Assembly (NCBI GenBank): GCA_964532425.1
Contig: CAZHIA010000003.1
Span: 117,365-181,364 of the forward strand
Reading direction: 5' to 3'
From: an uncultured Candidatus Saccharibacteria bacterium
Lineage (GTDB): Bacteria > Patescibacteriota > Doudnabacteria > UBA920
Length of the DNA: 64,000 nt
The notes below the pieces were generated by a model, which had not been told where the DNA came from, made no database searches, and saw nothing but the letters and a program-made list of their open reading frames with translations. Shown one piece after another: positions 1-59,778 of the stretch. Positions within the stretch are counted from its first letter, which is position 1, and each line of letters starts with the position of its first letter. The position numbers and the translations under genes were made by a program.

Positions 1-16
1 ATGTAAGATTTTCTCT

Positions 17-2044
17 ATGGAAGAACTCGAAAGCCAAGTCGCCAAAATCCAAATCGGCAATTTCAAGACCACGACCAGCTATGTGCATATCGTGACCGAA
101 AAGGCAGTTGCCTCGGACGCGGAGCTGTATCTCGTGGTGGAATTGCCGTTATTCAATCCCGCAGCCGAGAGTTCTTGTGAAAAGATCGCTCTGGCTATTG
201 CCGGCACGCTCCGCCGCGCCTACCGCCGGAACGTCGGCCAGGCTTCGTTCGAGAGCGCCATCGCCCAAGTCAACGACGAGCTCGGCAAACTGGCTTCCAT
301 GGGCCAGACCCACTGGATTGACAAGCTCAATTGCATTATCGGAGTTAAAGACGGCACCACCTTTACCGTTGCCACGTGCGGCAAAATAGCAGCCTACATT
401 TACCGCAACGGGGAATTTACCGACATCTCCACTCCCACCCAACCCTCCCACCCGCTGAAGACTTTCGAAAACTATGCTTCGGGCAGGCTCCGCCTTGGCG
501 ATATCCTGATTCTTTCCACGACCCAGCTTTATAACCATATTTCGGTTGACCGATTCAAAAACATCCTGTCCGGTTCGGGATCGAATTTTCTGATTGCCAC
601 CCAGACAATCATCGAATTACTCAAAGAAAATGCCGGGCCGGAAGTGGCGTTCGGCACCATCCTGAACATGCAGGTCATGCCCGGCCAAACTCCGGACGGC
701 GAGATTGATCTGGAAAACTATGTGGCAGAACAGCCACGCCGGTTTAACTTGCTCTATAAAGCCTGGGGTTCGATAAAGTCCGTACTAGTTTTCGACAAAG
801 ATGCCCGCAAGCCGCAGGTGAGCTTGCCGAAAATTTCCCTGCCGAAATTCAAAAACCTTGGCGGCAGCTCCAAACGATGGGCCGGCAAGACCAGGCATGC
901 CATGAGCAGCGCCTGGAGCAGCTTAAAATCCGGTTCAGACAATCTCGGCGCAGCCAAAATTGCCTCCTATTCTCGCGAAAAGAAGATATTTCTTGCCGCC
1001 TTGGTTCTCATGCTCATTATGATCGGCGTAACTATTACGCTAGCCAGCCGCCACAAAAACTCCCAACAAACGCAAGCTACTGCATCGAGTACACTCAAAG
1101 AGATTCAAACCCTGTTGTCCAAAGCCAGCGATTCCTATTTGTACAAGGACGAACAGAACACCAGAACGTTCCTGTCCCAGGCCAAGGAAAAATTGCCCAC
1201 CAAGGACAGCATCCCCTCTTCCCAACAGGCACTCTATACGCAAATTACCGCACAGATTACTGACCTTCAGCAAAAGATAGATAGAACAAGCGAGGCCAAA
1301 GTACAGAACCTCGGCACGCTCGGTAACGCCGATTCACTTTTGAAGTTGCCCCAGTTCCTGGCTGTCCAGATTGGCAAAACCGTTGTTAGTTACAACCTGG
1401 CTAGCGGCCAAGTGCAAGACGGCGCGCTCCTGTCATCTGAAACCATCACTCGCGCGGTACCGCTCGGCGCCCAAACCGCGGTGGTTTACAACGGACAAGC
1501 GCTCATGGTGTGGGACTACCAAAAACACCAGTTTAGCGCTCCGTTCACACTCTCGGTCCCGCAGCAAAATGACAGTGTTGGCTTGGCGCTCTACCCCGTC
1601 AATAACCGGGTATACATGGTCAACAAGGCCACGCGCCAAGTAGTCAGCTACCTGGCAGGTTCGTCGTTGTCCAAGCCGGTCGTCTCGGTCGCAAACGCGC
1701 AGGACGCAAGCAACGCCATTGACCTTGCGGTCGACGGCAGCATTTATGTCCTGTCGTCCTCCGGCGTGGCCAAGTACCAATCCGGCAAGCCGGCCGATTT
1801 CCAACTGCCGTTTATGTACACGCCATTTTCCGGTAAAGGTAGGATTGCTACTGCAAAGGATTATAAGAATATTTACATTTTAGATGCCGGCAATAACCGC
1901 ATCATTATCGTGGACAAAAAAGGCACGCTGGTGCAGACCCTTGTCAGCAAGGACTTCACCAAGCTAAAAGACTTCACCGTCGATGAAGCAAATAAGACCA
2001 TGTATATTTTAAATGACAGCAGCTTGTTGAAAGTCAGTTATTAG
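17..2044 (+). CDS. PP2C/SpoIIE-like Ser/Thr phosphatase domain, one TM helix, then a C-terminal beta-propeller (NHL/YVTN-like repeats). The ORF is open to the window edge, so it may be 5'-truncated.
   Basis: PP2C-like motifs GKIAAYIYRNGEF and GDILILSTTQL; TM segment KIFLAALVLMLIMIGVTITLA; repeated YVLSSSG / NIYILDAGNNRIIIVDKKG propeller-like blades. Confidence 0.55.
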   Translation: MEELESQVAKIQIGNFKTTTSYVHIVTEKAVASDAELYLVVELPLFNPAAESSCEKIALAIAGTLRRAYRRNVGQASFESAIAQVNDELGKLASMGQTHWIDKLNCIIGVKDGTTFTVATCGKIAAYIYRNGEFTDISTPTQPSHPLKTFENYASGRLRLGDILILSTTQLYNHISVDRFKNILSGSGSNFLIATQTIIELLKENAGPEVAFGTILNMQVMPGQTPDGEIDLENYVAEQPRRFNLLYKAWGSIKSVLVFDKDARKPQVSLPKISLPKFKNLGGSSKRWAGKTRHAMSSAWSSLKSGSDNLGAAKIASYSREKKIFLAALVLMLIMIGVTITLASRHKNSQQTQATASSTLKEIQTLLSKASDSYLYKDEQNTRTFLSQAKEKLPTKDSIPSSQQALYTQITAQITDLQQKIDRTSEAKVQNLGTLGNADSLLKLPQFLAVQIGKTVVSYNLASGQVQDGALLSSETITRAVPLGAQTAVVYNGQALMVWDYQKHQFSAPFTLSVPQQNDSVGLALYPVNNRVYMVNKATRQVVSYLAGSSLSKPVVSVANAQDASNAIDLAVDGSIYVLSSSGVAKYQSGKPADFQLPFMYTPFSGKGRIATAKDYKNIYILDAGNNRIIIVDKKGTLVQTLVSKDFTKLKDFTVDEANKTMYILNDSSLLKVSY

Positions 2045-2045
2045 G

Positions 2046-2091
2046 AGTAATCTCGAATATAACGAATCAAGCACAAATATACGTATGCAGC
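2046..2091. repeat. Left inverted-repeat arm flanking the GxxExxY gene (agtaatctcgaatata...aatatacgtatgcagc).
   Basis: Reverse complement of 2501-2526 (gctgcattcgtatattcgagattact) matches agtaatctcgaatata-cgaat-gcagc here. A second nested inverted repeat (aatatacgtatgcagc) is also present. Confidence 0.7.
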
Positions 2092-2483
2092 ACTCCGGCT
2101 ATCTTCTTTACCCGGAACTGAGCTATCAGATTGTAGGAGCTGCTTTTACTGTCTTTAACAAGTGCGGTTATGGGATGCCTGAGAAATATTACCAGCACTG
2201 CTTTTCAGAAGAACTGAAAAAACTTCATATATCTCACCAGAGAGAAAAGTATGTAATGCTTAAATACGGAGATGTCCCACTGAGTAAATATTTTCTGGAC
2301 TTTATAATAGACGGCAAAATCGTCGTTGAGATAAAGGTGAGACCCCATACCGGATATATCCATATAAAACAAGTTACCGCATACTTAAAAGCAACCCAGT
2401 GCCCATTGGCTATTTTAATTTACTTTACGAGAGACGGAGTTAAATACCGAAGAATAATCAATACACCTAACAAGCTTACTTAA
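2085..2483 (+). CDS. GxxExxY family protein (PD-(D/E)XK-like fold).
   Basis: Motif YPELSYQIVGAAFTVFNKCGYGMPEKYYQHCF (G-x-x-E-x-x-Y), 132 aa. The gene is bracketed by about 22-bp inverted repeats. Confidence 0.7.
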   Translation: MQHSGYLLYPELSYQIVGAAFTVFNKCGYGMPEKYYQHCFSEELKKLHISHQREKYVMLKYGDVPLSKYFLDFIIDGKIVVEIKVRPHTGYIHIKQVTAYLKATQCPLAILIYFTRDGVKYRRIINTPNKLT

Positions 2484-2485
2484 AG

Positions 2486-2526
2486 CATTTGCATATTTGC
2501 GCTGCATTCGTATATTCGAGATTACT
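2486..2526. repeat. Right inverted-repeat arm flanking the GxxExxY gene.
   Basis: gcatttgcatatttgcgctgcattcgtatattcgagattact is the inverted partner of 2046-2091. Confidence 0.7.
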
Positions 2527-2528
2527 AT

Positions 2529-3092
2529 ATGAACGACAAAGAAATAGAGGCCAAATTTTTAGATATTGATAAGCCGGTGCTTGTAGCCAAATTGACGGCT
2601 CTTGGCGCCCAAGATTTCGGCGAGGAAACGTTCCAGGAAGCGATTTTTTATGACAAAGATCTGACCTGGAACAAGGTCGGACGGCCATTCGTGCGCATGC
2701 GCAAAAAGCACGACGAGATTATTTTAAGCTATAAAGACCACCAAGTCGTTTCCGTGGACGGCACGGTGGAATTGGAGACCAAGGTTTCCGACTGGGACCA
2801 GACTGTAAAAATTCTTGAACACATCGGCTTGGTCAAATTTCGCGTGCAGGAAAAGCGCTGCCATGAATTTCAGCTCGGCGAAGTTACCGTGGGCATCGAT
2901 ACCTGGCCAAAAGTACCGACCTATGTAGAATTAGAAGGGCCTTCCGAAGACTCGATAAAAGAGGCTGCCGATCGCTTAGGTCTGGACTGGTCCAAAGCCG
3001 TCTTCCTGGACGCTCGCAGCGTGATCAAGCAGTATTTGGGCGATGACGTGGGAAATTATAAGGTGTATACGTTCGACCGGATTGAGTTGTAA
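2529..3092 (+). CDS. CYTH-domain protein (class IV adenylyl cyclase / triphosphate tunnel metalloenzyme family).
   Basis: N-terminal EIEAKF (ExExK) motif; C-terminal VTVGIDTWPKVPTYVELEG block typical of CYTH. Confidence 0.8.
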   Translation: MNDKEIEAKFLDIDKPVLVAKLTALGAQDFGEETFQEAIFYDKDLTWNKVGRPFVRMRKKHDEIILSYKDHQVVSVDGTVELETKVSDWDQTVKILEHIGLVKFRVQEKRCHEFQLGEVTVGIDTWPKVPTYVELEGPSEDSIKEAADRLGLDWSKAVFLDARSVIKQYLGDDVGNYKVYTFDRIEL

Positions 3093-3195
3093 CACAAATT
3101 GACCCTGTACCACTCATCTGTCTTGGGTAGATTCGGATGCAGGACACAGCACGAATTACCCCGGACGCCTATCATCGGTAAAATGATAGATTGCT

Positions 3196-3221
3196 GTAGG
3201 GGCGGATACCATCCGCCCTCC
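3196..3221. repeat. REP-like palindromic unit (gtaggggcggataccatccgccctcc) immediately upstream of the RAYT gene.
   Basis: GTAGGG + inner palindrome GGCGGATACCATCCGCC. Same family as 11528-11558, 50480-50514 and others. Confidence 0.7.
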
Positions 3222-3234
3222 AGTGTTTTGAAAA

Positions 3235-3759
3235 ATGTCTAATTCTCGAAAACAAAATCGTCTTCATTGCTATGATTACTCTCAACCGGGGTTCTATTTT
3301 GTAACTGTGTGCACACAAGGTAGGATTTGCTGTTTAGGAGAGATCATAAATGGAAAAATGAATTTGAGTGAAAACGGAAAAATTGTTGAGGAGTGCTGGC
3401 TCGGCATTCCACTTCATTACGAGAATGTGAGCATTGATTCGGCGCATATTGTCATGCCCAATCACTTGCATGGAATAATCATAATAGAACCTGTAGGGGC
3501 GGTTACTAACCGCCCTAGGAACCGGGCGGATGATATCCGCCCCTACAATAACACCAATCTTTCTGCAGTGGTGGGTTCATTCAAAAAAGCAGCATCCAAG
3601 CTGATCCATGCTGAATATACAGCATTTGATTGGCAAAAGTCTTTTTATGACCACGTCATCCGCAAAGATGAATCACTCGATAAAATTCGCGAATATATTC
3701 GCAACAACCCATTAAAATGGGAATTGGACAGAAACAATCCTTCCAATATCTGGATGTAG
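3235..3759 (+). CDS. REP-associated tyrosine transposase (RAYT), IS200/IS605-like Y1 transposase.
   Basis: HuH motif HIVMPNHLHGII and Tyr motif DWQKSFYDHVIRKDE. A REP-like pair lies in frame between the two motifs. Confidence 0.8.
   Translation: MSNSRKQNRLHCYDYSQPGFYFVTVCTQGRICCLGEIINGKMNLSENGKIVEECWLGIPLHYENVSIDSAHIVMPNHLHGIIIIEPVGAVTNRPRNRADDIRPYNNTNLSAVVGSFKKAASKLIHAEYTAFDWQKSFYDHVIRKDESLDKIREYIRNNPLKWELDRNNPSNIWM
3491..3546. repeat. Two REP-like units lying in frame inside the RAYT coding sequence.
   Basis: ctgtaggggcggttactaaccgccctag and gggcggatgatatccgcccctac are translated as ...EPVGAVTNRPRNRADDIRPY... Confidence 0.7.
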
Positions 3760-3842
3760 CGCAGGCCCGTGGCCTGCTATTTTATTATTCTAAAACAAAA
3801 TTAAAAAATGGACACGCGAATCAAATTCGCGTGCCCTGTTGC

Positions 3843-4160
3843 TTACTTGGGTGCCACCGTGTAGACGATGGCCAGTTTGCCGAGCGGCCGGCTGCCGGCG
3901 CAAATGCGCTGCTTCGGCTGCTGGGGGCGCTCCGCCCAGAAAGTCCGCACGACCGTCACCTGATCGTCCATGATGGCCGAGGCGAAAAACTTTTCCTCGG
4001 TCATGTCAGGCGTCAACAAATGTTCATTCAGGTTAACTGCCACGGCTACAGCCAAATCGCGGAAACGTTCGTCGCCGTCATAGGCATTAATGACCATGAC
4101 TTTCTGGTCACCTTGCAACTGCGCGGCTTTTTCCACCAACGGGTCTACTCGTAACGACAT
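3843..4160 (-). CDS. Hypothetical protein (105 aa) co-transcribed downstream of the DHH phosphoesterase gene.
   Basis: SD AAGGAGGG 8 nt before the ATG; terminator hairpin cacgcgaat-caa-attcgcgtg plus a T-run downstream. Confidence 0.5.
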   Translation of the reverse strand: MSLRVDPLVEKAAQLQGDQKVMVINAYDGDERFRDLAVAVAVNLNEHLLTPDMTEEKFFASAIMDDQVTVVRTFWAERPQQPKQRICAGSRPLGKLAIVYTVAPK

Positions 4161-4170
4161 ACTCCCTCCT

Positions 4171-5211
4171 TTACACCGTAAACATGCTGTCTTCCATCCA
4201 AGCCTTGACCATTTCGAGAACCAGTGGCTCGGTGACCTTCTTGAGCCAGACTCCTAAGTCCAGTTCCATCATGGCCCCGCCCTCACCCCGACCATCGGGG
4301 GTTAACTTGGCGCCGGAATGCTTGGTGAAGTGCTTTTTAAGAAAATCACCCAGCGGCTCGCTGAGGTTGGACGACCGCGCGCTAATGCGCACGCGATTGC
4401 CAATAATGCCCCAGACCACGACGAGCGAGACCCCGTCCATGCGCAGGAATTCATCGGCCACTTCCGCGAGCTGGTCGCTGTCCTGTTCGCTAATGAATCC
4501 CATACCCGTCACCAGCCTGCTCCCCTGCTGCTTGCGCAGCTCAAGAGCTTTTTGGAGGTACACGAAGTACATGGGTGAGAGCTTGTAGGAAAGTAGCGGT
4601 GCCAATTCTTCGGCACTCAAGCCTTCCACGAGCTTTTGATAGGCGCTGATGTCGCGCTTGTCGCACGCAATGAGGCCTTTGGTGTCGGTGTAAATACCGA
4701 GGGCCATCACTACTTTCAGATAGCGGAATTCGAACGGGATAGTATACTGACACGCTTCGATCAGTTCGTGAACCAGCGTCGTGCCTGCACCCACCTCATC
4801 GACAAGGACGAAATTGTCACCATTTTGGGCAAATTCCCCATCGCGGTGATGGTCAATGATGATCGACGGCGGATATTCCTCAATCAGGTTGAGCCGTGCA
4901 TCGGTGAGCAGCGATGAGTCGACCAGGGCGGTGGGCACATTCTTGGCAAGAGTGACCATGGACGCTTCCCGCAGAAACCGGCCGAGGTCGTAACGATTCA
5001 CGATGGCGCGGTTCTGAGCATGGCCGATAGGTCCTCCGTAGACAATCCGGGAAGCCACATGGTTCTCCCCGCGAATTTTGTACGAATGAAAGTCCAGGCC
5101 TAAAGCCATGGCCAAAGCATCGGGATCGAGCTGTGCGAGGAAGATGGTCAACTGCCCTTGCAGTTCAGCCATAACCCGCTTGAATTTTTCCGCTTGTGCT
5201 TGCGTTACCAT
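4171..5211 (-). CDS. DHH-family phosphoesterase (NrnA-like oligoribonuclease / pAp phosphatase).
   Basis: DHH motif IIIDHHRD and DHHA1-like C-terminus (GGGH-like GEGGAMM). SD AGGAGG before the MVTQAQ start. Confidence 0.8.
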   Translation of the reverse strand: MVTQAQAEKFKRVMAELQGQLTIFLAQLDPDALAMALGLDFHSYKIRGENHVASRIVYGGPIGHAQNRAIVNRYDLGRFLREASMVTLAKNVPTALVDSSLLTDARLNLIEEYPPSIIIDHHRDGEFAQNGDNFVLVDEVGAGTTLVHELIEACQYTIPFEFRYLKVVMALGIYTDTKGLIACDKRDISAYQKLVEGLSAEELAPLLSYKLSPMYFVYLQKALELRKQQGSRLVTGMGFISEQDSDQLAEVADEFLRMDGVSLVVVWGIIGNRVRISARSSNLSEPLGDFLKKHFTKHSGAKLTPDGRGEGGAMMELDLGVWLKKVTEPLVLEMVKAWMEDSMFTV

Positions 5212-5307
5212 ATTGTTCCTCCTGAAATACACCCTACTATACACCTTTTGAAACAGCTTTACAAGGGCAATTTTTGGCAGTATACTGGCGGTGTTAAGGA
5301 GGGAACA

Positions 5308-5445
5308 ATGACCAGAAAAATGATATCGCTGCTCTTGCTGTTGCTCGCATTCCGCATTGTGATAGTAGTCGGCGGCTTAGAACTCCGGCCGAACCCCCCG
5401 CCGCCGCAAGTCCCAAATTTCGACTGGCATTGGGCACCGTACTAA
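5308..5445 (+). CDS. Small hydrophobic peptide (45 aa), hypothetical.
   Basis: AAGGAGGG SD 6 nt upstream; MTRKMISLLLLLLAFRIVIVVGG. Confidence 0.35.
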   Translation: MTRKMISLLLLLLAFRIVIVVGGLELRPNPPPPQVPNFDWHWAPY

Positions 5446-5464
5446 AGGCCCTAAGGAGCCACTC

Positions 5465-5689
5465 ATGCATTACACTTACCTGGAACTGCACGGACTTAAA
5501 TATGCCGAGGTTAACTCGCTCAAACTGTCAGACGACGATCTGGATATGAAGCGCCATCTCGAGCACTGCGAACTCTGCCGCGGGCGGTATGAGAATTTAA
5601 GCCATGCCGATACCGAAGAGATGAAGCGTTTTCACCAGGATTTCATGAAACCGCTGAGTTACGACTCGTCCCACAATTCAGCGCAGTAG
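5465..5689 (+). CDS. Small hypothetical protein (74 aa) with an HCELCRG motif.
   Basis: SD AAGGAG 8 nt before the ATG; followed by a terminator. Confidence 0.5.
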   Translation: MHYTYLELHGLKYAEVNSLKLSDDDLDMKRHLEHCELCRGRYENLSHADTEEMKRFHQDFMKPLSYDSSHNSAQ

Positions 5690-5700
5690 CAGCCAAACCC

Positions 5701-5735
5701 GCCACCGGATTCTCGTCCCCGGTGGCTTTTTGTAT
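5701..5735 (+). terminator. Rho-independent terminator.
   Basis: gccaccgg-attctcgtc-cccggtggc hairpin followed by TTTTTGT. Confidence 0.7.
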
Positions 5736-5973
5736 TCGCCCTGAGTCATTGCTATAAAAACAAAAACCGTCCCCACAGAGCCCCGATAACCGATACCTTC
5801 CCCCATGCTGTAATACGTGACAGCAATGCAGTGCAAAGTTCTTACTGCAGTACGGTGCAGTATTGCAGTGACTATCGTCTGCCTTAATCCCAAATCTTAA
5901 ATCATAAATCAGACCCCACCCTTTGCAACAAAGGGCGGGGTCATCCGGTCGAATGGCCGGGTCAAATGAAAAA

Positions 5974-5991
5974 GCAGCCCCGAAGGACTGC
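5974..5991. terminator. Hairpin terminator (gcagcc-ccgaa-ggactgc) serving the minus-strand gene 6012-6332.
   Basis: Stem-loop flanked by an A-run on the plus strand, which is a T-run on the minus strand. Confidence 0.6.
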
Positions 5992-6011
5992 TTGTGGTTT
6001 GTCTCGCGCCG

Positions 6012-6332
6012 CTACCCTCCAACAGCGGTACCGAGCGCGATGCTCCGGCCCGGCAACGTGAAGTGTTGCGAACCGAAGTCCAGCGGCCTTATAGCGCTGA
6101 CAGCCTGTCCGCCAGACGGCAGATCTTTGAGCGTAAAGATGACGAGTACGCCAGGCCGCAAACCGCCAGGAGAGAATCGCTTTAAGTCGCTCAACTTCTC
6201 CCCATGGTACTTGGCATACGCGTCGCAGGTAAAGGAATAATCTCCCCCTCCCGGACCCTCTTCCTTGATATAACCAAGGCCAGAATCCCCCACCATTCTG
6301 ACAACGATGCCTAACCGCTCATTCTGTTGCAT
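6012..6332 (-). CDS. Hypothetical protein (106 aa).
   Basis: SD AAGGAGG 7 nt before the ATG (MQQNERL); terminator just downstream. Confidence 0.55.
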   Translation of the reverse strand: MQQNERLGIVVRMVGDSGLGYIKEEGPGGGDYSFTCDAYAKYHGEKLSDLKRFSPGGLRPGVLVIFTLKDLPSGGQAVSAIRPLDFGSQHFTLPGRSIALGTAVGG

Positions 6333-6460
6333 AGTATTGCCTCCTTGTTGGTATCGAGCCCAGTATAAGACTCTTTATGGTAGCATGGTCAAATATTTTG
6401 CGAAAGATCCAATGATCAAGCAAACAGTATATTACAAAATTCTTTAATTGATGTTTATAT

Positions 6461-6488
6461 ACAAAAAAAGCAGTCCCAAAGGACTGCC
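6461..6488 (-). terminator. Rho-independent terminator (gcagtcc-caaa-ggactgc + T-run on the minus strand).
   Basis: Perfect 7-bp stem; aaaaaaa on the plus strand. Confidence 0.7.
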
Positions 6489-6502
6489 GAGAGGCGGCTT
6501 GG

Positions 6503-6817
6503 TTATTCCAAACCGCTCATACTTATGCTCTTGAGTTCGCGGCACCGTGCTTCCCACAGCGCATAGGCAGGGCTATATGCCGGATCCGGGGCAGAGGCCC
6601 TGGTGAGGTTACACAGTTCCAGCTCGTCTTGCCTGGTTGCGTTCAGGTTCGCGTTGCCCTCAAACACCATACCTGGCTCCAATCCGTCTAGGGGTATTGA
6701 AAACAGATCCCGGGAAACCCAGACGATCTCCAACTGTTTCCACTGCGGGATGACCACGCCGACCACTCCAAATTTTTTCAATACATCCTGGACACGAACA
6801 AAAACGTTGTATTCCAT
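6503..6817 (-). CDS. Hypothetical protein (about 104 aa).
   Basis: SD GGAGGG before the MEYNVFVRV start. Confidence 0.5.
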   Translation of the reverse strand: MEYNVFVRVQDVLKKFGVVGVVIPQWKQLEIVWVSRDLFSIPLDGLEPGMVFEGNANLNATRQDELELCNLTRASAPDPAYSPAYALWEARCRELKSISMSGLE

Positions 6818-7149
6818 TTTCCCTCCAATTAAGCAAACATCATACAATAGCACCAACTGGCACCTATGTCAATTCGCCCATTACCTGCCCTGCCTGCACT
6901 TTTTCATGCGGGATGATTGTCATAGTGGAAATAATCGACCTGTCCGCCGTAGGGGCAAGCGACAGCTGCCCACTCCCTATCGTGTTAACAGTTTCAGCAG
7001 GATGGGCACATTCCACCTTCGTTAAAACCCTGGCGGGCTGCTAAAGCACGCCCCTACAAAGCACAGCGCCGCTGACAGCGTGGGACGAGATTTATCCACA
7101 CCATCTGATGGTGCATTAAACTCGGGGTAACCCACTATTAATTAAAAAC

Positions 7150-7172
7150 TCTCCCAAAGGGAGAGTTTTTTA
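7150..7172. terminator. Bidirectional terminator hairpin ctctccc-aaa-gggagag flanked by an A-run and a T-run.
   Basis: Seen directly in the sequence; lies downstream of rplL. Confidence 0.7.
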
Positions 7173-7335
7173 AACCTTATTGAACGGAAGATCCTTCGTT
7201 CGCCAGAGGCGAACTCAGGATGACTTTGAAAACTAACAGATGCCGTTTTATTAAGACTACCCGCAATAAAGACAGCATGGATCCCCGCATTCGCGGGGAT
7301 GACCCCCTATTGTTTAAAAATCTGCTCCCTTGGGA

Positions 7336-7361
7336 GCAGATTTTTAAACCTTATTTGAGGG
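7336..7361. terminator. Terminator hairpin atctgctccc-ttg-ggagcagat + TTTT. This is a second copy of the module at 7150; both are followed by taaaccttatt.
   Basis: Seen directly in the sequence. Confidence 0.65.
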
Positions 7362-7412
7362 TCACTTTCGCGCCAGCCCTGAACTACTTTGAGTACAGGA
7401 CTTCCGCGAAGG

Positions 7413-7811
7413 TTACTTTAAAGTAACCTTCGCGCCAGCTTCTTCCAGTTTCTTCTTGAGTTCTTCGGCATCGGCCTTGGAGGCGTTTTCCTTGACTACC
7501 TTCGGAGCGCCGTCGACAATGTCCTTGGCTTCCTTAAGACCCAAACCGGTCACTTCGCGGACAACCTTGATGACATTGATCTTGTTGGCACCAGCTTCGG
7601 TGAGTTCTACATTGAACTCGGTCTTCTCTTCGACAGGAGCGCCGGCGGCCGGACCACCCATCATCATCATGGGAGCGGCAGCGGAAACACCAAACTTCTC
7701 TTCGAGCACTTTTACCAGCTCGGCAAGCTCGATAACGGAAAGCTTTTCGACCTGGTCAACGAGAGTCTTAAACTTCTCGGGGACTTCTACAGTCTTTACT
7801 TCGTCGGACAT
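7413..7811 (-). CDS. rplL: 50S ribosomal protein L7/L12.
   Basis: [42 protein letters not shown]...KVTLK, the canonical L7/L12 sequence. Confidence 0.97.
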
Positions 7812-10566: not shown

Positions 10567-10814
10567 TCACTTCCCCCTTTGCTCAACACAGAGATCTGTC
10601 CCTGTACAGGCGGGTCGCGCCTGTCCGCCGAAAGCGGGACCCGCCCGTACAGGACTTACGCGCTTGCCCTAGCGCAAGGCATTTTGTGAGGATTGGCCGA
10701 GCCGTACTGGAGGTACGGTGAGGTCAACCGGAGCAAAATAACGAAGCGATCGGGCAAGCCCTTGTGGTTTCGACTATTATGGTTCCTTTCCGAGTCGAAA
10801 CGCGTAAGTCCTCC

Positions 10815-11474: not shown

Positions 11475-11558
11475 GGGCGGGTCACGACCCACCCCTACAG
11501 AATTATGCTCCCTATGGGATTCATGTTCCCTGTAGGGGCGGTTATCAACCGCCCTGCA
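11475..11558. repeat. Cluster of two REP-like units (gggcgggtcacgacccacccctacag ... cctgtaggggcggttatcaaccgccctgcac).
   Basis: Inverted GTAGGG/CCCTAC ends with inner palindromes. Further hairpins follow at 11566-11590 and 11615-11650 (cctgcctgccggcaggcagg). Confidence 0.7.
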
Positions 11559-31938: not shown

Positions 31939-32325
31939 ATGGACTCTTCTGGACAGAAACAACAAAACACGGGAGATCGTCCGTTTGCGGTCATCGTACT
32001 GCTCGCCATTGCCTGCATAGCTGCGCTGTGGTGGTTTTTGACTGACCTTCACCAAACCTACCGGATTGTCCGGCTGCACGAAACCATAGGCTCAAGGGCC
32101 CAACACCTCACTCCGTCTGACATCCAACCCTGGATGACCTTTGAATACGTCAATAGGGTCTTCAAACTGCCGCCTGAATACCTCAAGGCCCGCCTGAGCA
32201 TAAAAGACCGGCACTATCCCCGCCTACAGATCAACCATTACGCAAACACAAACCGGCTCGACGTACACCAGGCCATTCAAAGCGTACGCACCGCAGTCGA
32301 AGAGTACCAATCAATAAAAAAATAG
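31939..32325 (+). CDS. Hypothetical membrane-anchored protein.
   Basis: Single N-terminal TM helix. Confidence 0.5.
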   Translation: MDSSGQKQQNTGDRPFAVIVLLAIACIAALWWFLTDLHQTYRIVRLHETIGSRAQHLTPSDIQPWMTFEYVNRVFKLPPEYLKARLSIKDRHYPRLQINHYANTNRLDVHQAIQSVRTAVEEYQSIKK

Positions 32326-32339
32326 AAAATTTAGGCATG

Positions 32340-32415
32340 GTATCATAATCTTTTTATTTTTCTATTTTCTATTTTTTTATCTGGTTTCTATCTTTTTATC
32401 TTTCTATCATTATCG
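32340..32415. repeat. A/T-rich 7-bp-periodic tandem repeats (ttttcta ttttcta ttttttt atctggt ttctatc tttttat ctttcta).
   Basis: Seen in the sequence. Related in composition to 58505-58572. Confidence 0.55.
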
Positions 32416-35409: not shown

Positions 35410-36156
35410 ATGAAGATTCTTCGCCTTACCATGGGCATGCCGGCGACGGTAGAAATTCGCGATACAGATGGAGCACGTGCAGACGCAGCCATCGGCAAAG
35501 TATTTGAATATTTCTCCGAAATAGACCAGCGGTTCAGCACTTACAAACCGGACAGCGAGATTAGCCGTATCAACCGCGGAGAACTCGAATGGGCAGACAT
35601 CAGTCCGGAAACGAAGGATATTCTTGCCCGGTCGCAGCAGACCAAGGAAGAAACGGCTGGTTACTTTAATATCCGGCGTCCGGACGGCTCTTTGGATCCT
35701 TCCGGCTTGGTAAAAGGCTGGGCTATTTGGCAAGCAGCCAAGCTGCTTGAGAATCTCGGGTTCCAACAGTTCATTGTCGACATCGGCGGAGACATTCAGG
35801 CCAAATCCCTTACCGCCGGTAGCTGGAAAATTGGCGTCCGCAATCCGTTCAATCGCGAACAAAACGTGAAGATTCTCACCCTCGGTAACGAAGGAATCGC
35901 TACGTCCGGCACTGCTATCCGCGGGCAACACATTTATAATCCTCACGAGCCAAAACAGCCCATTACCGACATTGCCAGCTTGACCGTAGTCGGCCCGAAC
36001 GTCTACGAGGCCGACCGATTTGCCACCGCCGCTTTTGCCATGGGCGCGGACGGAATCCGGTTTATCGAATCCGTTCCGGGCCTGGAAGCGTATATGATCG
36101 ACAAGGACGGCATAGCGACGATGACAACGGGGTTCGGGAAATACGTCCAAGAATAA
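35410..36156 (+). CDS. apbE: FAD:protein FMN transferase (ApbE family).
   Basis: ApbE signature blocks MPATVEI, SRINRGE, DPSGLVKGWA and IGGDI. The upstream in-frame ATG at 35380 is an alternative start. Confidence 0.85.
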   Translation: MKILRLTMGMPATVEIRDTDGARADAAIGKVFEYFSEIDQRFSTYKPDSEISRINRGELEWADISPETKDILARSQQTKEETAGYFNIRRPDGSLDPSGLVKGWAIWQAAKLLENLGFQQFIVDIGGDIQAKSLTAGSWKIGVRNPFNREQNVKILTLGNEGIATSGTAIRGQHIYNPHEPKQPITDIASLTVVGPNVYEADRFATAAFAMGADGIRFIESVPGLEAYMIDKDGIATMTTGFGKYVQE

Positions 36157-36268
36157 CAAATATCAAATCTCAAATAACCAATCAATAACAAATCTTTAAA
36201 TTTCAAATTCAGGGAATTGTCATTAAATATTCATTTGAAATTTGATATTTGATATTTGAAATTCATTT
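36157..36268. repeat. Inverted heptamer-array element: tatcaaa-type 7-mers (left) and tttgata/tttgaaa 7-mers (right) in the same 7-bp phase.
   Basis: caaatat caaatct caaataa ccaatca ... tttgaaa tttgata tttgata tttgaaa; the right units are the reverse complement of the left units. Confidence 0.65.
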
Positions 36269-37830: not shown

Positions 37831-37958
37831 ACACAACATTTAACCATTAACAATTAACATTTGACTGTAGTCGCCTCATCGGCGACCGCCGATAGGGTGG
37901 GAGGAGACCCTTGGTCTTCCCTATCCGGTCAAATGTCACATGTCAAAGGTCAAAGGTA
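37831..37958. repeat. Inverted heptamer-array element: ttaacaa/ttaacat 7-mers, a 60-bp spacer with a hairpin, then gtcaaat gtcacat gtcaaag gtcaaag.
   Basis: Same architecture as 57771-57837 and 63495-63558. Confidence 0.6.
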
Positions 37959-39166: not shown

Positions 39167-39531
39167 TTGGCTGATTTATGTGCCGTGTGATCTGAACCCT
39201 ACAACGACTCCCCAAAAACCCAAAATCAGGCTGAGTACCAGGTATTTGTCGGCCAGATCGAAACTCTGGCGGAAAGCGAACCCAACGACACCGAACAAGA
39301 ACAAGACCGAACCGGTAACGAGCGCGTATGAGCGGTGGCTATTTAAAAACATGTAATTTTTACTGCTTTTTCGACCTAGGCCGAAAAAGGTTGAAAAAAT
39401 TGTTAAAACCCGTATAATTATAGCAGCTTAAACCTCCTAAGGAAAGCACCGGAAAAGCTTTCCGAGGGACAAAGAGATATCACTAAATCCTTAATTGGAT
39501 ACGGCTATTGTGCCGTTATCCACACCAACCT

Positions 39532-41541
39532 ATGACCGAAAACTCTTTGCTCGTTGCTGCCCTCGTGGCCAGCCTGATAGCCCTGCTCTATGGGGTCTTT
39601 TTAATTTTTAAAATCCTCCGCCAGCCGCAAGGTTCGGGCAAGATGCTCGAAATTGCCAAAGCCGTCCAAGACGGAGCCAAGGCCTACCTGAACCGCCAGT
39701 ACCGCACCGTCGGCATTGTCGCGGTCGTCATTGTCCTCCTGATGTGGATCGCGCACTTTTCCGGCCATACGATCGTCGGGTTCATTATTGGCGCCGTGCT
39801 CTCCGCGGTTGCCGGATTCATTGGCATGAATATTTCCGTACGCGCCAATGTCCGCACCGCTGAAGCGGCTAAAAAAGGATTATCCGCCGCATTGTCTTTG
39901 GCTTTTGAAGGCGGCACTGTCACCGGCTTGTTCGTTGCCGGGCTCGGACTGCTCTCTGTGACCGTCTTTTACATGACCACCCGTGACCTGCCCGCACTGG
40001 CAGGATTAGCCTTCGGTGCTTCTTTGATCTCCGTTTTTGCCAGACTCGGCGGTGGCATCTTCACTAAAGGTGCTGACGTCGGTACCGACATGGTTGGCAA
40101 GGTCGAAGCTTCCATTCCGGAAGACGATCCGCGCAATCCGGGCGTCATTGCCGATAACGTCGGCGATAACGTCGGTGACTGCGCCGGCATGGCCGCGGAC
40201 CTGTTTGAAACCTATGTTGTGTCCGCTGTCGCCGTTATTTTGCTCGGCAACGTAGTCTTCCCTGGTTTCCTGAATGCCATCTTGTTCCCACTGCTCATCG
40301 GCGCGGCTTCTATTATTACCACCATCATCGGCACCTGGTTTGTCCGCCTGGGCAAGAGCAAGAACATCATGGGCGCCATGTACAAAGGCTTTGCCGTGAC
40401 TGGCGTACTCTCTGCCATAGTCTTCTACCCCCTGACCCAGAAACTCATGGCCGACAACCCGGGCAACATCAGCTGGCAGAATCTCTTCTATTCCTCTTTG
40501 ATCGGTCTTGTCGTCACCGGCCTTATAGTTCTGATCACCGAATTCTACACTTCCAAGTCCTTTAAGCCGGTGCGCGATATTGCCGCAGCTTCCACCACCG
40601 GACATGGTACCAACATCATCAAAGGGCTCGCCGTGGGCATGCAGTCCACCGCCTTACCGGTCATTGTCATCGTCATTGCCATTCTGGCAGCATACAAGCT
40701 AGCCGGATTATATGGCATTGCTTTGTCGGTTATGAGCATGCTTTCCCTGACCGGCATTGTCGTGGCCATTGATGCTTTCGGTCCCATCACTGACAACGCG
40801 GGCGGGATTGCCGAAATGGCTGAACTGGATAAGAGCGTGCGCGATGTGACCGACCCGCTCGATGCGGTCGGCAACACCACCAAAGCCGTCACCAAGGGCT
40901 ATGCCATCGCTTCGGCAGGACTTGCTGCCATGGTACTGTTTGCAGCATACACTCAGGAACTTGCAGCCAATAATATTTCCACTGTCTTCGATCTTTCCAA
41001 TAGCAAAGTCCTGGTTGGATTGCTCATTGGCGGACTGCTCCCCTACTTATTCGCTTCGATTGCCATGTCCGCCGTCGGAAATGCAGCCAAGGCTGTCGTT
41101 GAAGAAGTCCGCCGCCAGTTCCGCGAAATAAAGGGTATTATGGAAGGCACTGCCAAACCGGATTACTCCCGTGCGGTTGACATTGTAACCAAAGCTGCCA
41201 TTAAAGAAATGATCATTCCGGCTCTCATTCCGGTCATCATTCCCATCCTGGTCGGCTGGCTGCTTGGCGCTGCTGCCTTGGGCGGTTTGCTCGTCGGTAC
41301 TATCGTCACCGGACTGTTCGTGGGTATTTCCATGACCACCGGCGGCGCAGCCTGGGACAATGCCAAGAAGTATATTGAAGAAGGCCAGTTTGGCGGCAAA
41401 GGTTCGGACGCTCACAAGGCAGCCGTGACCGGCGACACCGTCGGCGACCCGTACAAGGATACTGCCGGCCCCGCGATTAATCCTATGATTAAAATTATCA
41501 ATATAGTCGCTCTCTTGCTAGTCAAATTCTTAAAGGGCTAA
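39532..41541 (+). CDS. hppA: Membrane-bound proton/sodium-translocating pyrophosphatase (V-type H+-PPase).
   Basis: [40 protein letters not shown] and [11 protein letters not shown] signature blocks; about 16 TM helices. Confidence 0.92.
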
Positions 41542-50479: not shown

Positions 50480-50514
50480 CCCCGTAGGGGACGGTCGCGA
50501 CCGTCCCCTACAAG
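50480..50514. repeat. REP-like unit cccgtaggggacggtcgcgaccgtcccctacaagg.
   Basis: GTAGGG-GACGGTCGCGACCGTC-CCCTAC. Confidence 0.75.
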
Positions 50515-53925: not shown

Positions 53926-54000
53926 ATTTATAAATTTCTTTCAACCTCAGTTCTAACTAAATTTCGCGGGGTGGCCCGCCGAGGGAATAACTGCGGATAA

Positions 54001-54744: not shown

Positions 54745-54770
54745 AGTACGATTGGCTTGGTACGGGCCGG

Positions 54771-54799
54771 TCGCGACCGGCCCCTACGACACTAAATTT
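54771..54799. repeat. REP-like unit gtacgggccggtcgcgaccggcccctacg.
   Basis: Same family as 50480-50514. Confidence 0.7.
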
Positions 54800-57744: not shown

Positions 57745-57770
57745 AATTTGAATCTTAATGCACAAGAACA

Positions 57771-57837: not shown

Positions 57838-57839
57838 GT

Positions 57840-58493: not shown

Positions 58494-58504
58494 ATAAAAT
58501 TTAA

Positions 58505-58572: not shown

Positions 58573-59778
58573 TTATTGCGTCCCCCTGCCTACCGCTTCG
58601 CTGATATTCTTATATCCGTCTTGCTCGAGTAATCTGACCAGTCCGCGATTGATATCACTGATCGCTTCGGGACCTTCGAAGATCATGCCGGTGATCAACT
58701 GAATCAGACTCGCGCCGAGCTTGATCTTTCTATAGGCATCCTCAGCCGTAAACACGCCGCCGCACCCGATGATCACGAATTCTCCGCGCGTCTTTTGATA
58801 CAGATAGGCAATTTGCCGGTCAGACAACGCCTGTACTACCTTGCCCGACATGCTGCCACTTTGAGGCAAATCGGATTCCTTAATGTTCGGGTTAGACCGG
58901 TCTTTGGCCAGATTGGTACTGATAAACCCCGTGATTTTATGCTTGCGCGCAACTTCGATCATGCCATCCAAAACTTGTTCAGGCATCTCGGCCGGCATTT
59001 TGATGAAGACTGGTTTTTGGTTCGGTACCTGGCGTAAAGCTGTCATAAGGCGGTCGAACTTCTCCGGGGTAGTGAACGGCTCGCCGCCAAAGGCATTCGG
59101 ACAGGAAATATTGACCGTAAAATAATCGCCGGTGTTCGCATCCACGAAGGTCTTGTACGCCTTCACGTAATCCGCAATACCAGCTTGTTCCTCGACCGTG
59201 TCGGCACTGTTAGTCTTGGCAATAGATATCCCGATCGGTATTCGACTGACGGTGTAAGGACGGGCCTGCGCCTTACCGGCGGGCAGGTCGACCCGTTCAG
59301 AAGCGGAACGGTCTCGACCGTTCCCTACAGACTGTAGTCTCTTCACGATTGCTTTACATCCGTCATTTTTAAGTCCGTAATACACGACCAGGCTCCCCGA
59401 CCGCTTCAACCGCCACAGTCGCGGCTTGGGATTGCCCGCACACGGGTTGCCAGTAACCGAGCCAATCTCTTCAAATCCAAATCCCACTTCGGGCAGGATC
59501 TGCGTCAAATGCGCGTCCTTGTCAAATCCGGCCGCAAGGCCTATGGGATTTTCAAAACGGATGCCGGCAACGGTTTGGGCCAACATAGGACTATCATAAC
59601 CGAACATGACTCTCGTCAATCCGCGGGTTGCTGCCGTTTTGCCGAGCATGGAGCCGACGAATGTCATACGGTCATGCACCGCTTCCGGATCGGCAAGAAA
59701 AAACAACGGCTTCAGCACGCCTTTATACGCAACCCGGATAACTGCATTGCGCGCAATAATAAGAGAATCTTTAAGCAT
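58573..59778 (-). CDS. pyrD: Dihydroorotate dehydrogenase (quinone), class 2.
   Basis: N-terminal membrane-association helix; GNPKPRLWRL, IGSVT and GGV blocks; contains an in-frame REP-like insert. Confidence 0.85.
   Translation of the reverse strand: MLKDSLIIARNAVIRVAYKGVLKPLFFLADPEAVHDRMTFVGSMLGKTAATRGLTRVMFGYDSPMLAQTVAGIRFENPIGLAAGFDKDAHLTQILPEVGFGFEEIGSVTGNPCAGNPKPRLWRLKRSGSLVVYYGLKNDGCKAIVKRLQSVGNGRDRSASERVDLPAGKAQARPYTVSRIPIGISIAKTNSADTVEEQAGIADYVKAYKTFVDANTGDYFTVNISCPNAFGGEPFTTPEKFDRLMTALRQVPNQKPVFIKMPAEMPEQVLDGMIEVARKHKITGFISTNLAKDRSNPNIKESDLPQSGSMSGKVVQALSDRQIAYLYQKTRGEFVIIGCGGVFTAEDAYRKIKLGASLIQLITGMIFEGPEAISDINRGLVRLLEQDGYKNISEAVGRGTQ
59290..59330. repeat. REP-like unit (ggaacggtctcgaccgttccctacag) lying in frame inside pyrD.
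   Basis: Translated on the minus strand as ...QSVGNGRDRSASERVDLP... Confidence 0.65.

What the first reader, a model, noticed from the sequence alone, without database searches (positions are those of the whole stretch)
3196..3759. RAYT (IS200-like Y1 transposase) with its REP family; REP units lie in frame inside the RAYT gene itself
Seen in the sequence: a REP-like family with GTAGGG...CCCTAC ends and two inner-palindrome subtypes (GGCGGTTAnnAACCGCC and GACGGTCGCGACCGTC). Copies occur at 3196, 3491-3546, 8727, 11475-11558, 41548, 50480, 54771, 56380-56560 and 59290. A second, looser hairpin family, cctgcctgccggcaggcagg / cctgacagc...gctgtcagg, occurs at 11615, 29793, 30238 and 56536. The only transposase-like gene, 3235-3759, has the HuH (HLHGII) and Tyr (YDHVIR) motifs of REP-associated tyrosine transposases. 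Two REP units sit between those motifs and are translated (EPVGAVTNRPRNRADDIRPY). Established knowledge: RAYTs mobilise or maintain REPs. Inference: the RAYT has been hit by its own REPs yet keeps an open frame. Activity is uncertain, so it may be a pseudogene in waiting.
Basis: partly seen in the sequence, partly recalled or inferred. Interest (0 to 1): 0.55.

Follow-up and report, generated by a model that had tools for sequence, protein, structure and literature searches.

The report
RAYT gene carrying in-frame REP hairpins
This is an intact REP-associated tyrosine transposase gene with two of its own palindromic repeat units translated as a surface loop, which is the published hallmark of one RAYT subclass and not a sign of gene decay.

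Summary
ORF 3235-3759 (174 aa) is a RAYT/TnpA_REP. An inverted pair of GTAG-footed REP hairpins (3493-3546, 54 nt, 18 codons, VGAVTNRPRNRADDIRPY) lies in frame between the HuH motif and the catalytic region. Near-identical REPs lie at 3196 and 11532, and a second REP subtype occurs at five other sites.

This is not a chance self-hit or a "pseudogene in waiting". In 69 of 76 homologous genes from more than 20 phyla, a GT[AG]G-footed hairpin sits at the same place, between strand beta3 and helix alphaC. Quentin et al. 2018 (PMC6006769) already describe this as the unique feature of TnpA_Y1 subclass 2.4 (RAYT group 4).

All catalytic and GTAG-recognition residues are present here. The AlphaFold model is confident, the insert is a low-confidence loop, and the best structural match is E. 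coli TnpA_REP (4ER8). That residue is Y154 in YIRNNP.

Two additions: the same 28-nt hairpins recur, in different reading frames, in genes whose third codon positions are saturated. Also, pyrD in this window carries an in-frame REP insert.

Verdict: a new member, probably from Patescibacteria, of a known kind. Interest is low to moderate.

The parts
3196..3219 (+). REP unit (subtype 1, GTAGGGGCGGATACCATCCGCCCT), 16 nt upstream of the RAYT start codon. It forms the 5' flank of the REPtron.
   Evidence: It matches intragenic unit B at 22 of 24 positions.
3235..3759 (+). RAYT / TnpA_REP gene, 174 aa, subclass 2.4-like
3463..3471 (+). HuH motif codons (H77-L-H79, within MPNHLHGIIII), on strand beta3
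3493..3515 (+). Intragenic REP unit A (GTAGGGGCGGTTACTAACCGCCC). The GTA-GGG foot is read as Val-Gly.
   Evidence: It matches the extragenic unit at 11532 at 22 of 24 positions.
3524..3546 (-). Intragenic REP unit B (GTAGGGGCGGATATCATCCGCCC on the minus strand). The 3' foot CCC-TAC is read as Pro-Tyr.
3493..3546 (+). Inverted REP dimer (REPIN-like), 54 nt = 18 codons, aa 87-104. It forms the beta3-alphaC loop.
   Evidence: (I11)
3631..3663 (+). WQKSFYDHVIR: residues equivalent to the GTAG-recognition residues of E. coli (W94, Q95, E100, H101, R104).
3694..3711 (+). Y motif YIRNNP. Y154 is the catalytic Tyr and N158 the third metal ligand.
3761..3787 (+). Terminator-like hairpin GCAGGCCcgtGGCCTGC plus a T tract, directly after the stop codon
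8727..8775 (.). Intergenic inverted REP pair (subtype 2 unit plus a degenerate unit), with feet pointing outward
11475..11554 (.). Intergenic REP pair: 11475-11498 (-) and 11532-11554 (+, subtype 1, twin of intragenic unit A)
50484..50511 (.). Intergenic 'double-foot' REP GTAGGGGACGGTCGCGACCGTCCCCTAC
   Evidence: (I23)
54762..54787 (-). Intergenic REP unit (subtype 2) in the 72-nt gap between two minus-strand genes
59254..59328 (-). REP-derived in-frame insert in pyrD (VGNGRDRSASERVDLPAGKAQARPY), subtype 2 unit plus a degenerate unit

Best explanation
The locus is a REPtron. It holds a single-copy, domesticated HUH/Y1 nuclease gene (RAYT/TnpA_REP, subclass 2.4 of Quentin et al. 2018, group 4 of Bertels et al. 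2017) with its cognate GTAG-footed REP hairpins. The host is probably a Patescibacteria genome.

Shown here:
- The gene is intact and has the TnpA_REP fold.
- One REP lies 16 nt upstream of the start codon.
- An inverted REP dimer lies inside the ORF, in frame, and encodes an 18-residue disordered loop between strand beta3 (HuH) and helix alphaC.
- Almost all homologues carry one to three such hairpins at the same place.

From established knowledge of E. coli TnpA_REP (Messing et al. 2012, PDB 4ER8; Ton-Hoang et al. 2012): the enzyme binds the REP hairpin in single-stranded DNA. It reads the GTAG foot with the W/Q/E/H/R residues, which are conserved here, and cuts and rejoins DNA through the catalytic Tyr, here Y154.

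Inferred: REP units are gained, lost and replaced at this site by the same RAYT-dependent or REP-REP recombination processes that spread REPs elsewhere. Only variants that keep the frame open and free of stops survive. The peptide is tolerated because the loop points away from the active site. What is conserved is the DNA palindrome, not the peptide.
For: Identity of the gene:
- NCBIfam REP_Tyr_transpos E = 1.5e-12.
- The family profile aligns to 4ER8 with HuH on HuH and Y154 on Y115.
- The AlphaFold model has pLDDT 85.9. The insert is the only long low-confidence segment (aa 85-108) and lies between E77-84 and H109-124.
- The best Foldseek match is 4ER8 (TM 0.59/0.62), followed by the ISDra2 and IS608 TnpA structures.

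Subclass:
- Motifs NHLH, WQ and YIRNNP, a variable beta3:alphaC insert and no C-terminal tail.
- REPs with three G-C pairs at the foot, and double-foot REPs.
- These match Table 1 and the text of PMC6006769.

Clade-wide trait:
- 69 of 76 homologous genes have a GT[AG]G-footed hairpin in the 135-234 nt after the HuH motif. The background is roughly one per 1.6-1.8 kb.
- Hairpin count per gene is one in 42 genes, two in 25 and three in 2. The median offset is 7 codons after the HuH motif.

Conservation at DNA level rather than peptide level:
- The 5' foot lies in frame 0 (44 cases) or frame 1 (17 cases) and never in frame 2, which would give a TAG stop. The 3' foot occurs in all three frames.
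- Identical 28-nt REPs sit in genes that are only 53-65% identical in nucleotides (one closely related pair 74%), with 30-45% identity at third codon positions (that pair 55%). They are read in two frames and at different offsets.
- Hairpin arm sequence co-varies with RAYT core divergence (Mantel r 0.37, 0 of 2000 permutations reaching it).

Link between intragenic and extragenic copies:
- In the window, unit A matches 11532 at 22/24 positions and unit B matches 3196 at 22/24.
- 30 of 69 homologous loci have the same foot-plus-arm 14-mer outside the gene within 10 kb, often directly at the gene flanks.
Against: - Curated thresholds are not reached: Pfam Y1_Tnp 22.9 bits against 23, with only the C-terminal half matched, and NCBIfam 47.6 bits against 80.
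- The HuH motif is NHLH, while the published 2.4 consensus is NH[IFV]H.
- The subclass was assigned from motifs and architecture, not with the authors' profiles.
- REP copy number in the whole genome is unknown, because only 64 kb is available.
- Nothing here shows expression or nuclease activity.
- 39 of 69 homologous loci show no same-type REP outside the gene within 10 kb. Ongoing exchange with extragenic copies is therefore not demonstrated for them.
- Whether the intragenic REP is neutral or functional remains open.
Confidence: 0.85

Rival explanations
1. The intragenic REP is a selected cis-element and not a tolerated passenger. It could be a 'seed' or master copy that keeps the RAYT and its cognate hairpin genetically linked, including during horizontal transfer. 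It could also be an autoregulatory site where the RAYT protein (on single-stranded DNA) or the mRNA hairpin limits RAYT expression.
For: - The hairpin is near-universal at one site (69/76).
- The palindromes are perfect or near-perfect, although the genes are saturated at third codon positions.
- The peptide is not conserved, because different frames are used.
- Hairpin type tracks RAYT phylogeny across phyla.
- 39 of 69 loci keep the intragenic hairpin without any same-type copy within 10 kb.
- The hairpin would be very stable in mRNA, at -37 kcal/mol.
Against: - There is no direct evidence of regulation.
- The number of units (1-3), the offset (1-16 codons) and the frame vary. This fits repeated insertion and turnover as well as selection.
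- 7 of 76 genes lack a detectable hairpin.
- In this window an unrelated gene, pyrD, also carries an in-frame REP in a variable loop. Intragenic GTAG REPs are also known in many genes (PMC3733652). Tolerance alone can therefore produce such inserts.
Confidence: 0.2
2. One reading: a recent, accidental insertion of the element's own REPs into its transposase gene. The gene happens to stay in frame and is on its way to becoming a pseudogene.
For: - The intragenic units are nearly identical to extragenic units nearby (22/24 positions), which is compatible with a recent origin for these particular units.
- The first unit (VGAVTNRP) has no counterpart in the closest homologues, which carry only the ADxIRPY-type unit.
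Against: - The same site is occupied in 69 of 76 homologues across phyla, and this is described as the subclass hallmark.
- All catalytic and recognition residues are intact.
- The insert is a loop in a confident model.
- The stop-creating frame is never observed, which indicates purifying selection on the ORF.
Confidence: 0.05
3. The gene is an autonomous IS200/IS605-type transposase, and the hairpins are its subterminal IS ends rather than REPs.
For: It has the same fold and HuH/Y1 chemistry. The ISDra2 and IS608 TnpA structures are the next-best structural matches.
Against: - The Y motif is YIRNNP, of the class 2 type Y---NP. It is not the Y---Q of TnpA_IS200.
- There is only one copy in 64 kb, and no TnpB-like ORF adjoins it.
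- The hairpins occur as short solitary units scattered in intergenic regions and are not paired around the gene.
Confidence: 0.03

Closest known systems
TnpA_Y1 subclass 2.4 (Quentin, Siguier, Chandler, Fichant 2018, BMC Genomics 19:475, PMC6006769), equal to RAYT group 4 (Bertels, Gallie, Rainey 2017, PMC5581495)
   Same: - WQ and YIxNNP motifs, and an NHxH HuH motif.
- A variable-length, variable-sequence insert between beta3 and alphaC.
- No C-terminal extension.
- Flanking REPs with a GT[AG]G foot and three G-C pairs at the stem base, and 'double-foot' REPs.
[quoted passage not shown]
- The insert is predicted to be peripheral.
   Different: - The hydrophobic residue of the HuH motif is L, while the published consensus is I/F/V.
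- The length is 174 aa against a median of 194.
- The host is probably Patescibacteria. The subclass was described as abundant in Cyanobacteria and Bacteroidetes and scattered elsewhere.
- Assignment rests on motifs and architecture, not on the authors' profile.
E. coli TnpA_REP / RayT (YafM), PDB 4ER8, subclass 2.2 / RAYT group 2
   Same: - It has the same fold (Foldseek TM 0.59/0.62).
- HuH, Y115/N119 and the GTAG-recognition residues W94, Q95, H101 and R104 align with conserved residues here, and E100 aligns with D139.
- It is associated with GTAG-footed REPs.
   Different: - Identity is only 22%.
- The E. coli protein has DHLH and YIHYNP-type motifs and a C-terminal tail, with no beta3-alphaC insert and no REP inside its gene.
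- Its REPs have longer, bulged stems.
Intragenic GTAG/CGTC REPs in housekeeping genes (Di Nocera et al. 2013, PMC3733652) and Rickettsia palindromic elements (RPEs)
   Same: Short palindromic repeats are inserted in frame into loops of functional proteins and encode roughly 10-30 extra residues. The pyrD insert in this window is of this kind.
   Different: Those inserts are sporadic and gene-specific. In RAYT subclass 2.4 the insert occupies the same structural site in nearly every member across phyla.
REPINs (Bertels and Rainey 2011, PMC3116915)
   Same: There are two inverted REPs with a short spacer, able to fold into one long hairpin.
   Different: - Here the doublet is inside the RAYT coding sequence.
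- The spacer is very short, at 8 nt between the arms.
- REPIN populations were defined for group 2 and 3 RAYTs, not for group 4.

Membership tests
RAYT / TnpA_REP (class 2 TnpA_Y1) | HuH motif plus a single catalytic Tyr in a Y---NP motif | tested here: met
   H77-L-H79 and Y154-IRN-N158-P159. They align to the HuH motif and to Y115/N119/P120 of 4ER8 (definition).
RAYT / TnpA_REP (class 2 TnpA_Y1) | HUH/Y1 transposase fold | tested here: met
   The AlphaFold model has pLDDT 85.9 and pTM 0.80. The best PDB match is 4ER8, followed by the ISDra2, IS608 and IS200 TnpA structures.
RAYT / TnpA_REP (class 2 TnpA_Y1) | Passes the curated sequence models (Pfam PF01797 gathering score; NCBIfam NF047646 cut-off) | tested here: not met
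   Pfam gives 22.9 bits against 23, with only residues 104-158 matched because the insert splits the domain. NCBIfam gives 47.6 bits against 80. Most homologues are precomputed as PF01797.
RAYT / TnpA_REP (class 2 TnpA_Y1) | Gene flanked by REPs with a 5' GT[AG]G foot (REPtron), and low gene copy number | tested here: met
   A REP lies at 3196-3219, 16 nt upstream of the start codon. There is one RAYT copy in 64 kb. The 3' flank has a GTAG-preceded terminator-like hairpin, not a family REP.
RAYT / TnpA_REP (class 2 TnpA_Y1) | Sequence-specific binding and cleavage of single-stranded REP DNA | not testable with these tools
   This needs biochemistry. The residues equivalent to the E. coli GTAG-recognition residues are present.
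TnpA_Y1 subclass 2.4 / RAYT group 4 | Key motifs NH[IFV]H, WQ and YIxNNP | tested here: met
   The protein has NHLH, W133-Q134 and YIRNNP (Table 1). L is outside the printed consensus but is listed as an allowed hydrophobic residue for class 2. Homologues show L, F, I, V and M.
TnpA_Y1 subclass 2.4 / RAYT group 4 | Insert of variable length and sequence between beta3 and alphaC, made of REP sequence and in frame | tested here: met
   aa 87-104 correspond to 3493-3546.
TnpA_Y1 subclass 2.4 / RAYT group 4 | Cognate REPs are 'long' with three G-C pairs at the stem base, or 'double foot' (GT[AG]G ... C[TC]AC) | tested here: met
   All units have a GTAG-GGG/CCC stem base. Double-foot forms are found at 50484-50511, and the intragenic dimer has feet at both ends.
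TnpA_Y1 subclass 2.4 / RAYT group 4 | No conserved C-terminal extension after the core, and an 8-aa insertion at the end of alphaB | tested here: inconclusive
   The protein ends 15 residues after the YIRNNP motif, so it has no tail. The alphaB insertion was not examined against the authors' alignment.
TnpA_Y1 subclass 2.4 / RAYT group 4 | Assignment by the authors' MCL clusters, HMM profiles or tree | not testable with these tools
   The profiles are not available here. Homologues named by their sources are 'REP element-mobilizing transposase RayT'.
REP (repetitive extragenic palindrome), GTAG type | Short imperfect palindrome with a conserved GTAG tetranucleotide at the foot, repeated and mostly intergenic | tested here: met
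   About 12 units at 8 sites. They exceed shuffle expectation. All are intergenic except those in the RAYT gene and in pyrD.
REP (repetitive extragenic palindrome), GTAG type | High copy number genome-wide (tens to hundreds) | not testable with these tools
   Only the 64-kb window is available. The source contig of 285,837 bases is on record but could not be fetched.

The most novel reading that the evidence does not exclude
In subclass 2.4 RAYTs the hairpin inside the ORF may not be a tolerated passenger. It may be a conserved DNA-level element that the gene carries on purpose: its own cognate REP. It could serve as a linked seed or master copy, so that nuclease specificity and substrate are inherited and transferred together. 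It could also act as an autoregulatory site. This would explain four observations: 91% of genes from more than 20 phyla keep a near-perfect palindrome at one structural site; identical 28-mers persist in genes saturated at synonymous sites; the peptide frame is free to vary; and hairpin type tracks RAYT phylogeny.
Probability: 0.2. Interest if true: 0.6.

Novelty: new member of a known kind. Interest (0 to 1): 0.27.

Why it matters
The case shows that a reader without tools can recover the hallmark of a RAYT subclass from raw sequence. It also corrects the natural mis-reading that a repeat inside a gene means decay.

For annotation, the insert splits the Y1_Tnp domain, so both curated models fall below threshold. 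In addition, a gene caller started this gene at codon 44. Subclass 2.4 RAYTs in candidate-phyla genomes will therefore be under-annotated.

For biology, the cross-phylum survey sharpens an open question that the 2018 description left as 'may have little impact'. The question is why nearly every member keeps a perfect copy of its own target hairpin inside its coding sequence.

Tried and rejected
1. A relaxed census of any GT[AG]G-footed hairpin (stem of at least 7, up to 1 mismatch) in the window gave 40 hits against 34.6 in shuffles. It is uninformative. Only the strict GTAGGG family is enriched.

2. I looked for a natural length polymorphism at the site in the only other contig that carries the gene (L081, Logan SRR11567520). 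It is 100% identical to window 1-7593, so it adds nothing.

3. I looked for a conserved insertion target next to the intragenic REPs in 56-59 genes. There is only a weak preference for T/C before GTAG and for A/G after CTAC, which extends the palindrome by one pair. No target motif emerged.

4. The 'second hairpin family' is rejected as a family. The hairpins at 29800 and 30245 are terminator-like and sit directly after stop codons. The hairpins at 11628 and 56533 are only two similar copies. The CCTGTACAGG-ended palindromes are not enriched: 3 hits against 1.0 expected, with 7 of 100 shuffles reaching that count.

Placement in Patescibacteria rests only on HisRS neighbours at 60-70% identity.

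6. I considered that the insert is a protein-level linker repeat. This is rejected because the same DNA is read in different frames and also occurs outside genes.

7. The claim that this is the only transposase-like gene in the window was tested only for further RAYT copies. Other transposase families were not screened.
Full report
**1. What is in the sequence**

The ORF 3235..3759 (+, 174 aa, ATG start) is present as described. Between codons 87 and 104 the DNA reads GTAGGGGCGGTTACTAACCGCCCTAGGAACCGGGCGGATGATATCCGCCCCTAC (3493-3546). This is two hairpins, each with an 8-bp stem and a 3-nt loop, in inverted orientation. A GTAG foot sits at the 5' end and its complement CTAC at the 3' end. The 54 nt are 18 codons, read as VGAVTNRPRNRADDIRPY. 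As one strand the doublet folds into a single long hairpin. The energy is -20 kcal/mol as DNA (z -5.5) and -37 kcal/mol as RNA (z -6.3), and no shuffle out of 200 does as well.

A third unit, GTAGGGGCGGATACCATCCGCCCT, lies at 3196-3219, 16 nt before the start codon. A terminator-like hairpin with a T tract follows the stop codon.

**2. The REP family in the window**

- Strict patterns are enriched. GTAGGGGCGGWT with up to 1 mismatch gives 4 hits against 0.39 expected. GTAGGGRCGG with up to 1 mismatch gives 15 against 5.6. No shuffle out of 100 reached either count.
- A relaxed search for any GTRG-footed hairpin is not above background, with 40 found against 34.6. I therefore count only GTAGGG-footed units.
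- Two subtypes exist.
  - Subtype 1, GGGCGG[AT]TA..., comprises the two intragenic units plus 3196 and 11532. Unit A matches 11532 at 22 of 24 positions, and unit B matches 3196 at 22 of 24.
  - Subtype 2, GG..CGGTCG.GACCG..., comprises 8727, 11498(-), 50484/50511 (a 'double-foot' palindrome), 54787(-) and 59328(-).
- The sites are intergenic by the ORF map, with two exceptions: the RAYT gene and pyrD (section 8).
Only 11628 and 56533 resemble each other.

**3. The protein**

- NCBIfam REP_Tyr_transpos matches residues 18-164 (E = 1.5e-12), but at 47.6 bits it is below the 80-bit cut-off. Pfam Y1_Tnp matches only the C-terminal half, at 22.9 bits against a cut-off of 23. The insert splits the domain.
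- A profile of 40 homologues finds E. coli TnpA_REP (4ER8). In that alignment PNHLHGI lies on PEHMHCI and REYIRNNP lies on DYIYINP.
- By residue count, Y154 therefore aligns with Y115 and N158 with N119, the third metal ligand.
- WQKSFYDHVIR aligns with WQPRFWEHAIR. The residues reported to read the GTAG foot (W94, Q95, E100, H101, R104) correspond to W133, Q134, D139, H140 and R143 here, and all are present.
Its Y aligns with W99, so it is not the nucleophile.
- AlphaFold2 with the 40-sequence alignment gives pLDDT 85.9 and pTM 0.80. The order of elements is beta (19-27, 35-38, 41-44), helix 46-56, beta 65-73, beta 77-84 (HuH), a low-confidence coil at 85-108, helix 109-124, beta 138-142 and helices 145-167.
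- Foldseek ranks 4ER8 first (TM 0.59/0.62), followed by the ISDra2, IS608 and IS200 transposases.
- The insert is therefore a surface loop in an otherwise intact fold.

**4. Homologues**

A search found 1020 proteins with E up to 0.001. Many come from Patescibacteria, Zixibacteria and Bacteroidota MAGs, and several are named RayT. In the alignment the region after MPNHxHGIIII varies in length. It is filled with peptides such as VGTGRDLSLQ, VGNGLDRSLQ, VGAQNFVPLQ, VGADIIRPY and RADEIRPY. These peptides are what GTAGGG...CCCTAC gives in different frames.

At the DNA level I located the gene in 76 of 80 loci drawn from one genome per species, spanning more than 20 phyla.

- 69 of the 76 genes have at least one GT[AG]G-footed hairpin in the 135-234 nt between the HuH and WQ motifs. 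Most are perfect 10-bp 'double-foot' palindromes. The background rate in the window is about one per 1.6-1.8 kb.
- 42 genes have one hairpin, 25 have two (like this one) and 2 have three. The first foot lies a median of 7 codons after the HuH motif, with a range of 1-16.
The result also removes the idea of a one-off hit.

**5. It is already described**

Quentin, Siguier, Chandler and Fichant (2018, PMC6006769) define TnpA_Y1 subclass 2.4, which equals RAYT group 4 of Bertels et al. 2017.

- The defining features are NH[IFV]H, WQ and YIxNNP motifs, a median length of 194 aa and a beta3:alphaC insertion of variable length and sequence.
- The cognate REPs are 'long' (three G-C pairs at the stem base) or 'double foot'.
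- The paper states that 'a unique feature of subclass 2.4 is that ... [quoted passage not shown] - Group 4 is described as common in Cyanobacteria, Chlorobia and Caldilineae.
- The window's gene fits every feature I could test, except that its HuH hydrophobic residue is L.
- Full-text searches found no other paper that treats the point, and none on RAYTs in Patescibacteria.

**6. What the survey adds**

- (a) The 5' foot is in frame 0 (GTA-GGG, Val-Gly; 44 cases) or frame 1 (17 cases). It is never in frame 2, which would give a TAG stop. The 3' foot occurs in all three frames: 30, 31 and 4 cases. The ORF is under selection, but the peptide is not.
- (b) Identical 28-nt REPs occur in genes from different phyla. 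GTAGGGGCGGTTCGCGAACCGCCCCTAC occurs in four genes (a fifth, L034, has a one-mismatch variant) and GTAGGGGCACGGCATGCCGTGCCCCTAC in four. The core coding DNA of these genes is only 53-65% identical (one Chloroflexota pair 74%), with 30-45% identity at third positions (that pair 55%). The second 28-mer is read as VGARHAVPL in two genes and as RGTACRAPT in two others, at different offsets.
- (c) Hairpin arm sequence co-varies with RAYT core divergence (Mantel r 0.37; 0 of 2000 permutations reached it).
- (d) 30 of 69 loci have the same foot-plus-arm 14-mer outside the gene within 10 kb, often directly at the gene flanks. The other 39 do not.
- (e) No insertion target is conserved beyond one extra palindromic pair.

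Together these results show that the DNA palindrome is either constantly renewed or strongly constrained. A single ancient neutral insertion left to drift is excluded.

**7. Mechanism**

- Shown: the anatomy described above.
- From established knowledge of E. coli TnpA_REP (4ER8; Messing et al. 2012; Ton-Hoang et al. 2012; as summarised): the enzyme binds the folded REP in single-stranded DNA, reads the GTAG foot, and cuts and rejoins the DNA through its Tyr.
- Inferred: REP units are added, lost or replaced at the loop site by the same process or by recombination between REPs. An existing unit makes the site a hotspot. Selection removes every variant that breaks the frame.
- Open: whether the intragenic copy also has a role of its own, as a linked seed copy or an autoregulatory site. 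I give this about 0.2.

**8. Context and side observations**

- The window overlaps, at 100% identity, a Logan contig from SRR11567520. In that contig the gene was called from a TTG at codon 44.
- HisRS has a 100% match on a 285,837-base NCBI contig. Its nearest named relatives are Patescibacteria and Doudnabacteria at 60-67% identity. The host is probably a candidate-phyla-radiation bacterium.
- The closest RAYT homologues carry the same ADxIRPY-type hairpin as unit B. Among them is L001 from a Patescibacteria MAG, with GTAGGGGCGGATATTATCCGCCCCTAC encoding VGADIIRPY.
- pyrD (58573-59778 on the minus strand, DHO_dh domain) contains an in-frame REP-derived insert, VGNGRDRSASERVDLPAGKAQARPY (59254-59328). 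Compared with the best PDB homologue (8ofw) it has about 25 extra residues in a variable loop. This fits the sporadic intragenic REPs reported by Di Nocera et al. 2013. It shows that tolerance alone can fix in-frame REPs in this genome.

**9. Verdict**

The locus is a new member, probably from Patescibacteria, of a known and published kind. The gene shows no sign of decay. Interest is low to moderate. The open question is why nearly every member of the subclass keeps its own target hairpin inside its ORF.

Noticed in passing
window 59254-59328 (inside pyrD, 58573-59778, minus strand): The dihydroorotate dehydrogenase gene carries an in-frame REP-derived insert (VGNGRDRSASERVDLPAGKAQARPY; a subtype 2 unit plus a degenerate unit). 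It has about 25 extra residues in a variable loop compared with PDB 8ofw.
   Followed up: yes
window 37836-37957, 57768-57839, 63493-63550; also 46300-46377, 54000-54133, 58498-58577, 32314-32380, 36152-36256: AT-rich intergenic regions contain inverted arrays of tandem repeats of about 7 nt around a short spacer. Three sites share the unit ACATTTG/ACAATTG (32 hits with up to 1 mismatch against 14.8 expected; 0 of 100 shuffles reached this). Other sites have their own units (AGTGAAA/AGTTAAA, ATAGAAA, AAATTCG-like). Their function is unknown. They could be protein-binding arrays or bidirectional terminators.
   Followed up: partly
window 10601-10653 and 41548-41594: These are longer imperfect palindromes with GTAC/CAGG-type ends (CCTGTACAGG...CCCGTACAGG) rather than GTAG feet, lying in intergenic regions. 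As a pattern they are not enriched (3 hits against 1.0 expected).
   Followed up: partly
window 3364 (TTG, codon 44 of the RAYT); locus L081 8001-8396: A public gene call for the identical sequence starts the RAYT at an internal TTG and loses 43 conserved N-terminal residues. Both curated family models also fall below threshold because the REP insert splits the domain. This subclass is likely to be under-annotated.
   Followed up: yes
loci L056 (10241-10330), L033, L045, L077; protein P0106: Some homologous RAYT genes carry tandem arrays of the hairpin-derived unit in frame, for example GPCAVPK x4, SGSAP x3, GQAQGL x3 and VGTGRDAAS x3. The intragenic site can therefore expand by tandem duplication as well as by inverted pairing.
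   Followed up: no
window 54817-56328 and 39508-41541: The window encodes an archaeal-type phosphoenolpyruvate carboxylase (PF14010) and a membrane H+-pyrophosphatase. The HisRS of this genome is closest to those of Patescibacteria/Doudnabacteria.
   Followed up: no
window 2085-2483 and 2529-3092: The genes directly upstream of the RAYT encode a PDDEXK_3-family protein and a CYTH-domain protein (precomputed Pfam hits on the identical Logan contig). No link to the REPtron was examined.
   Followed up: no
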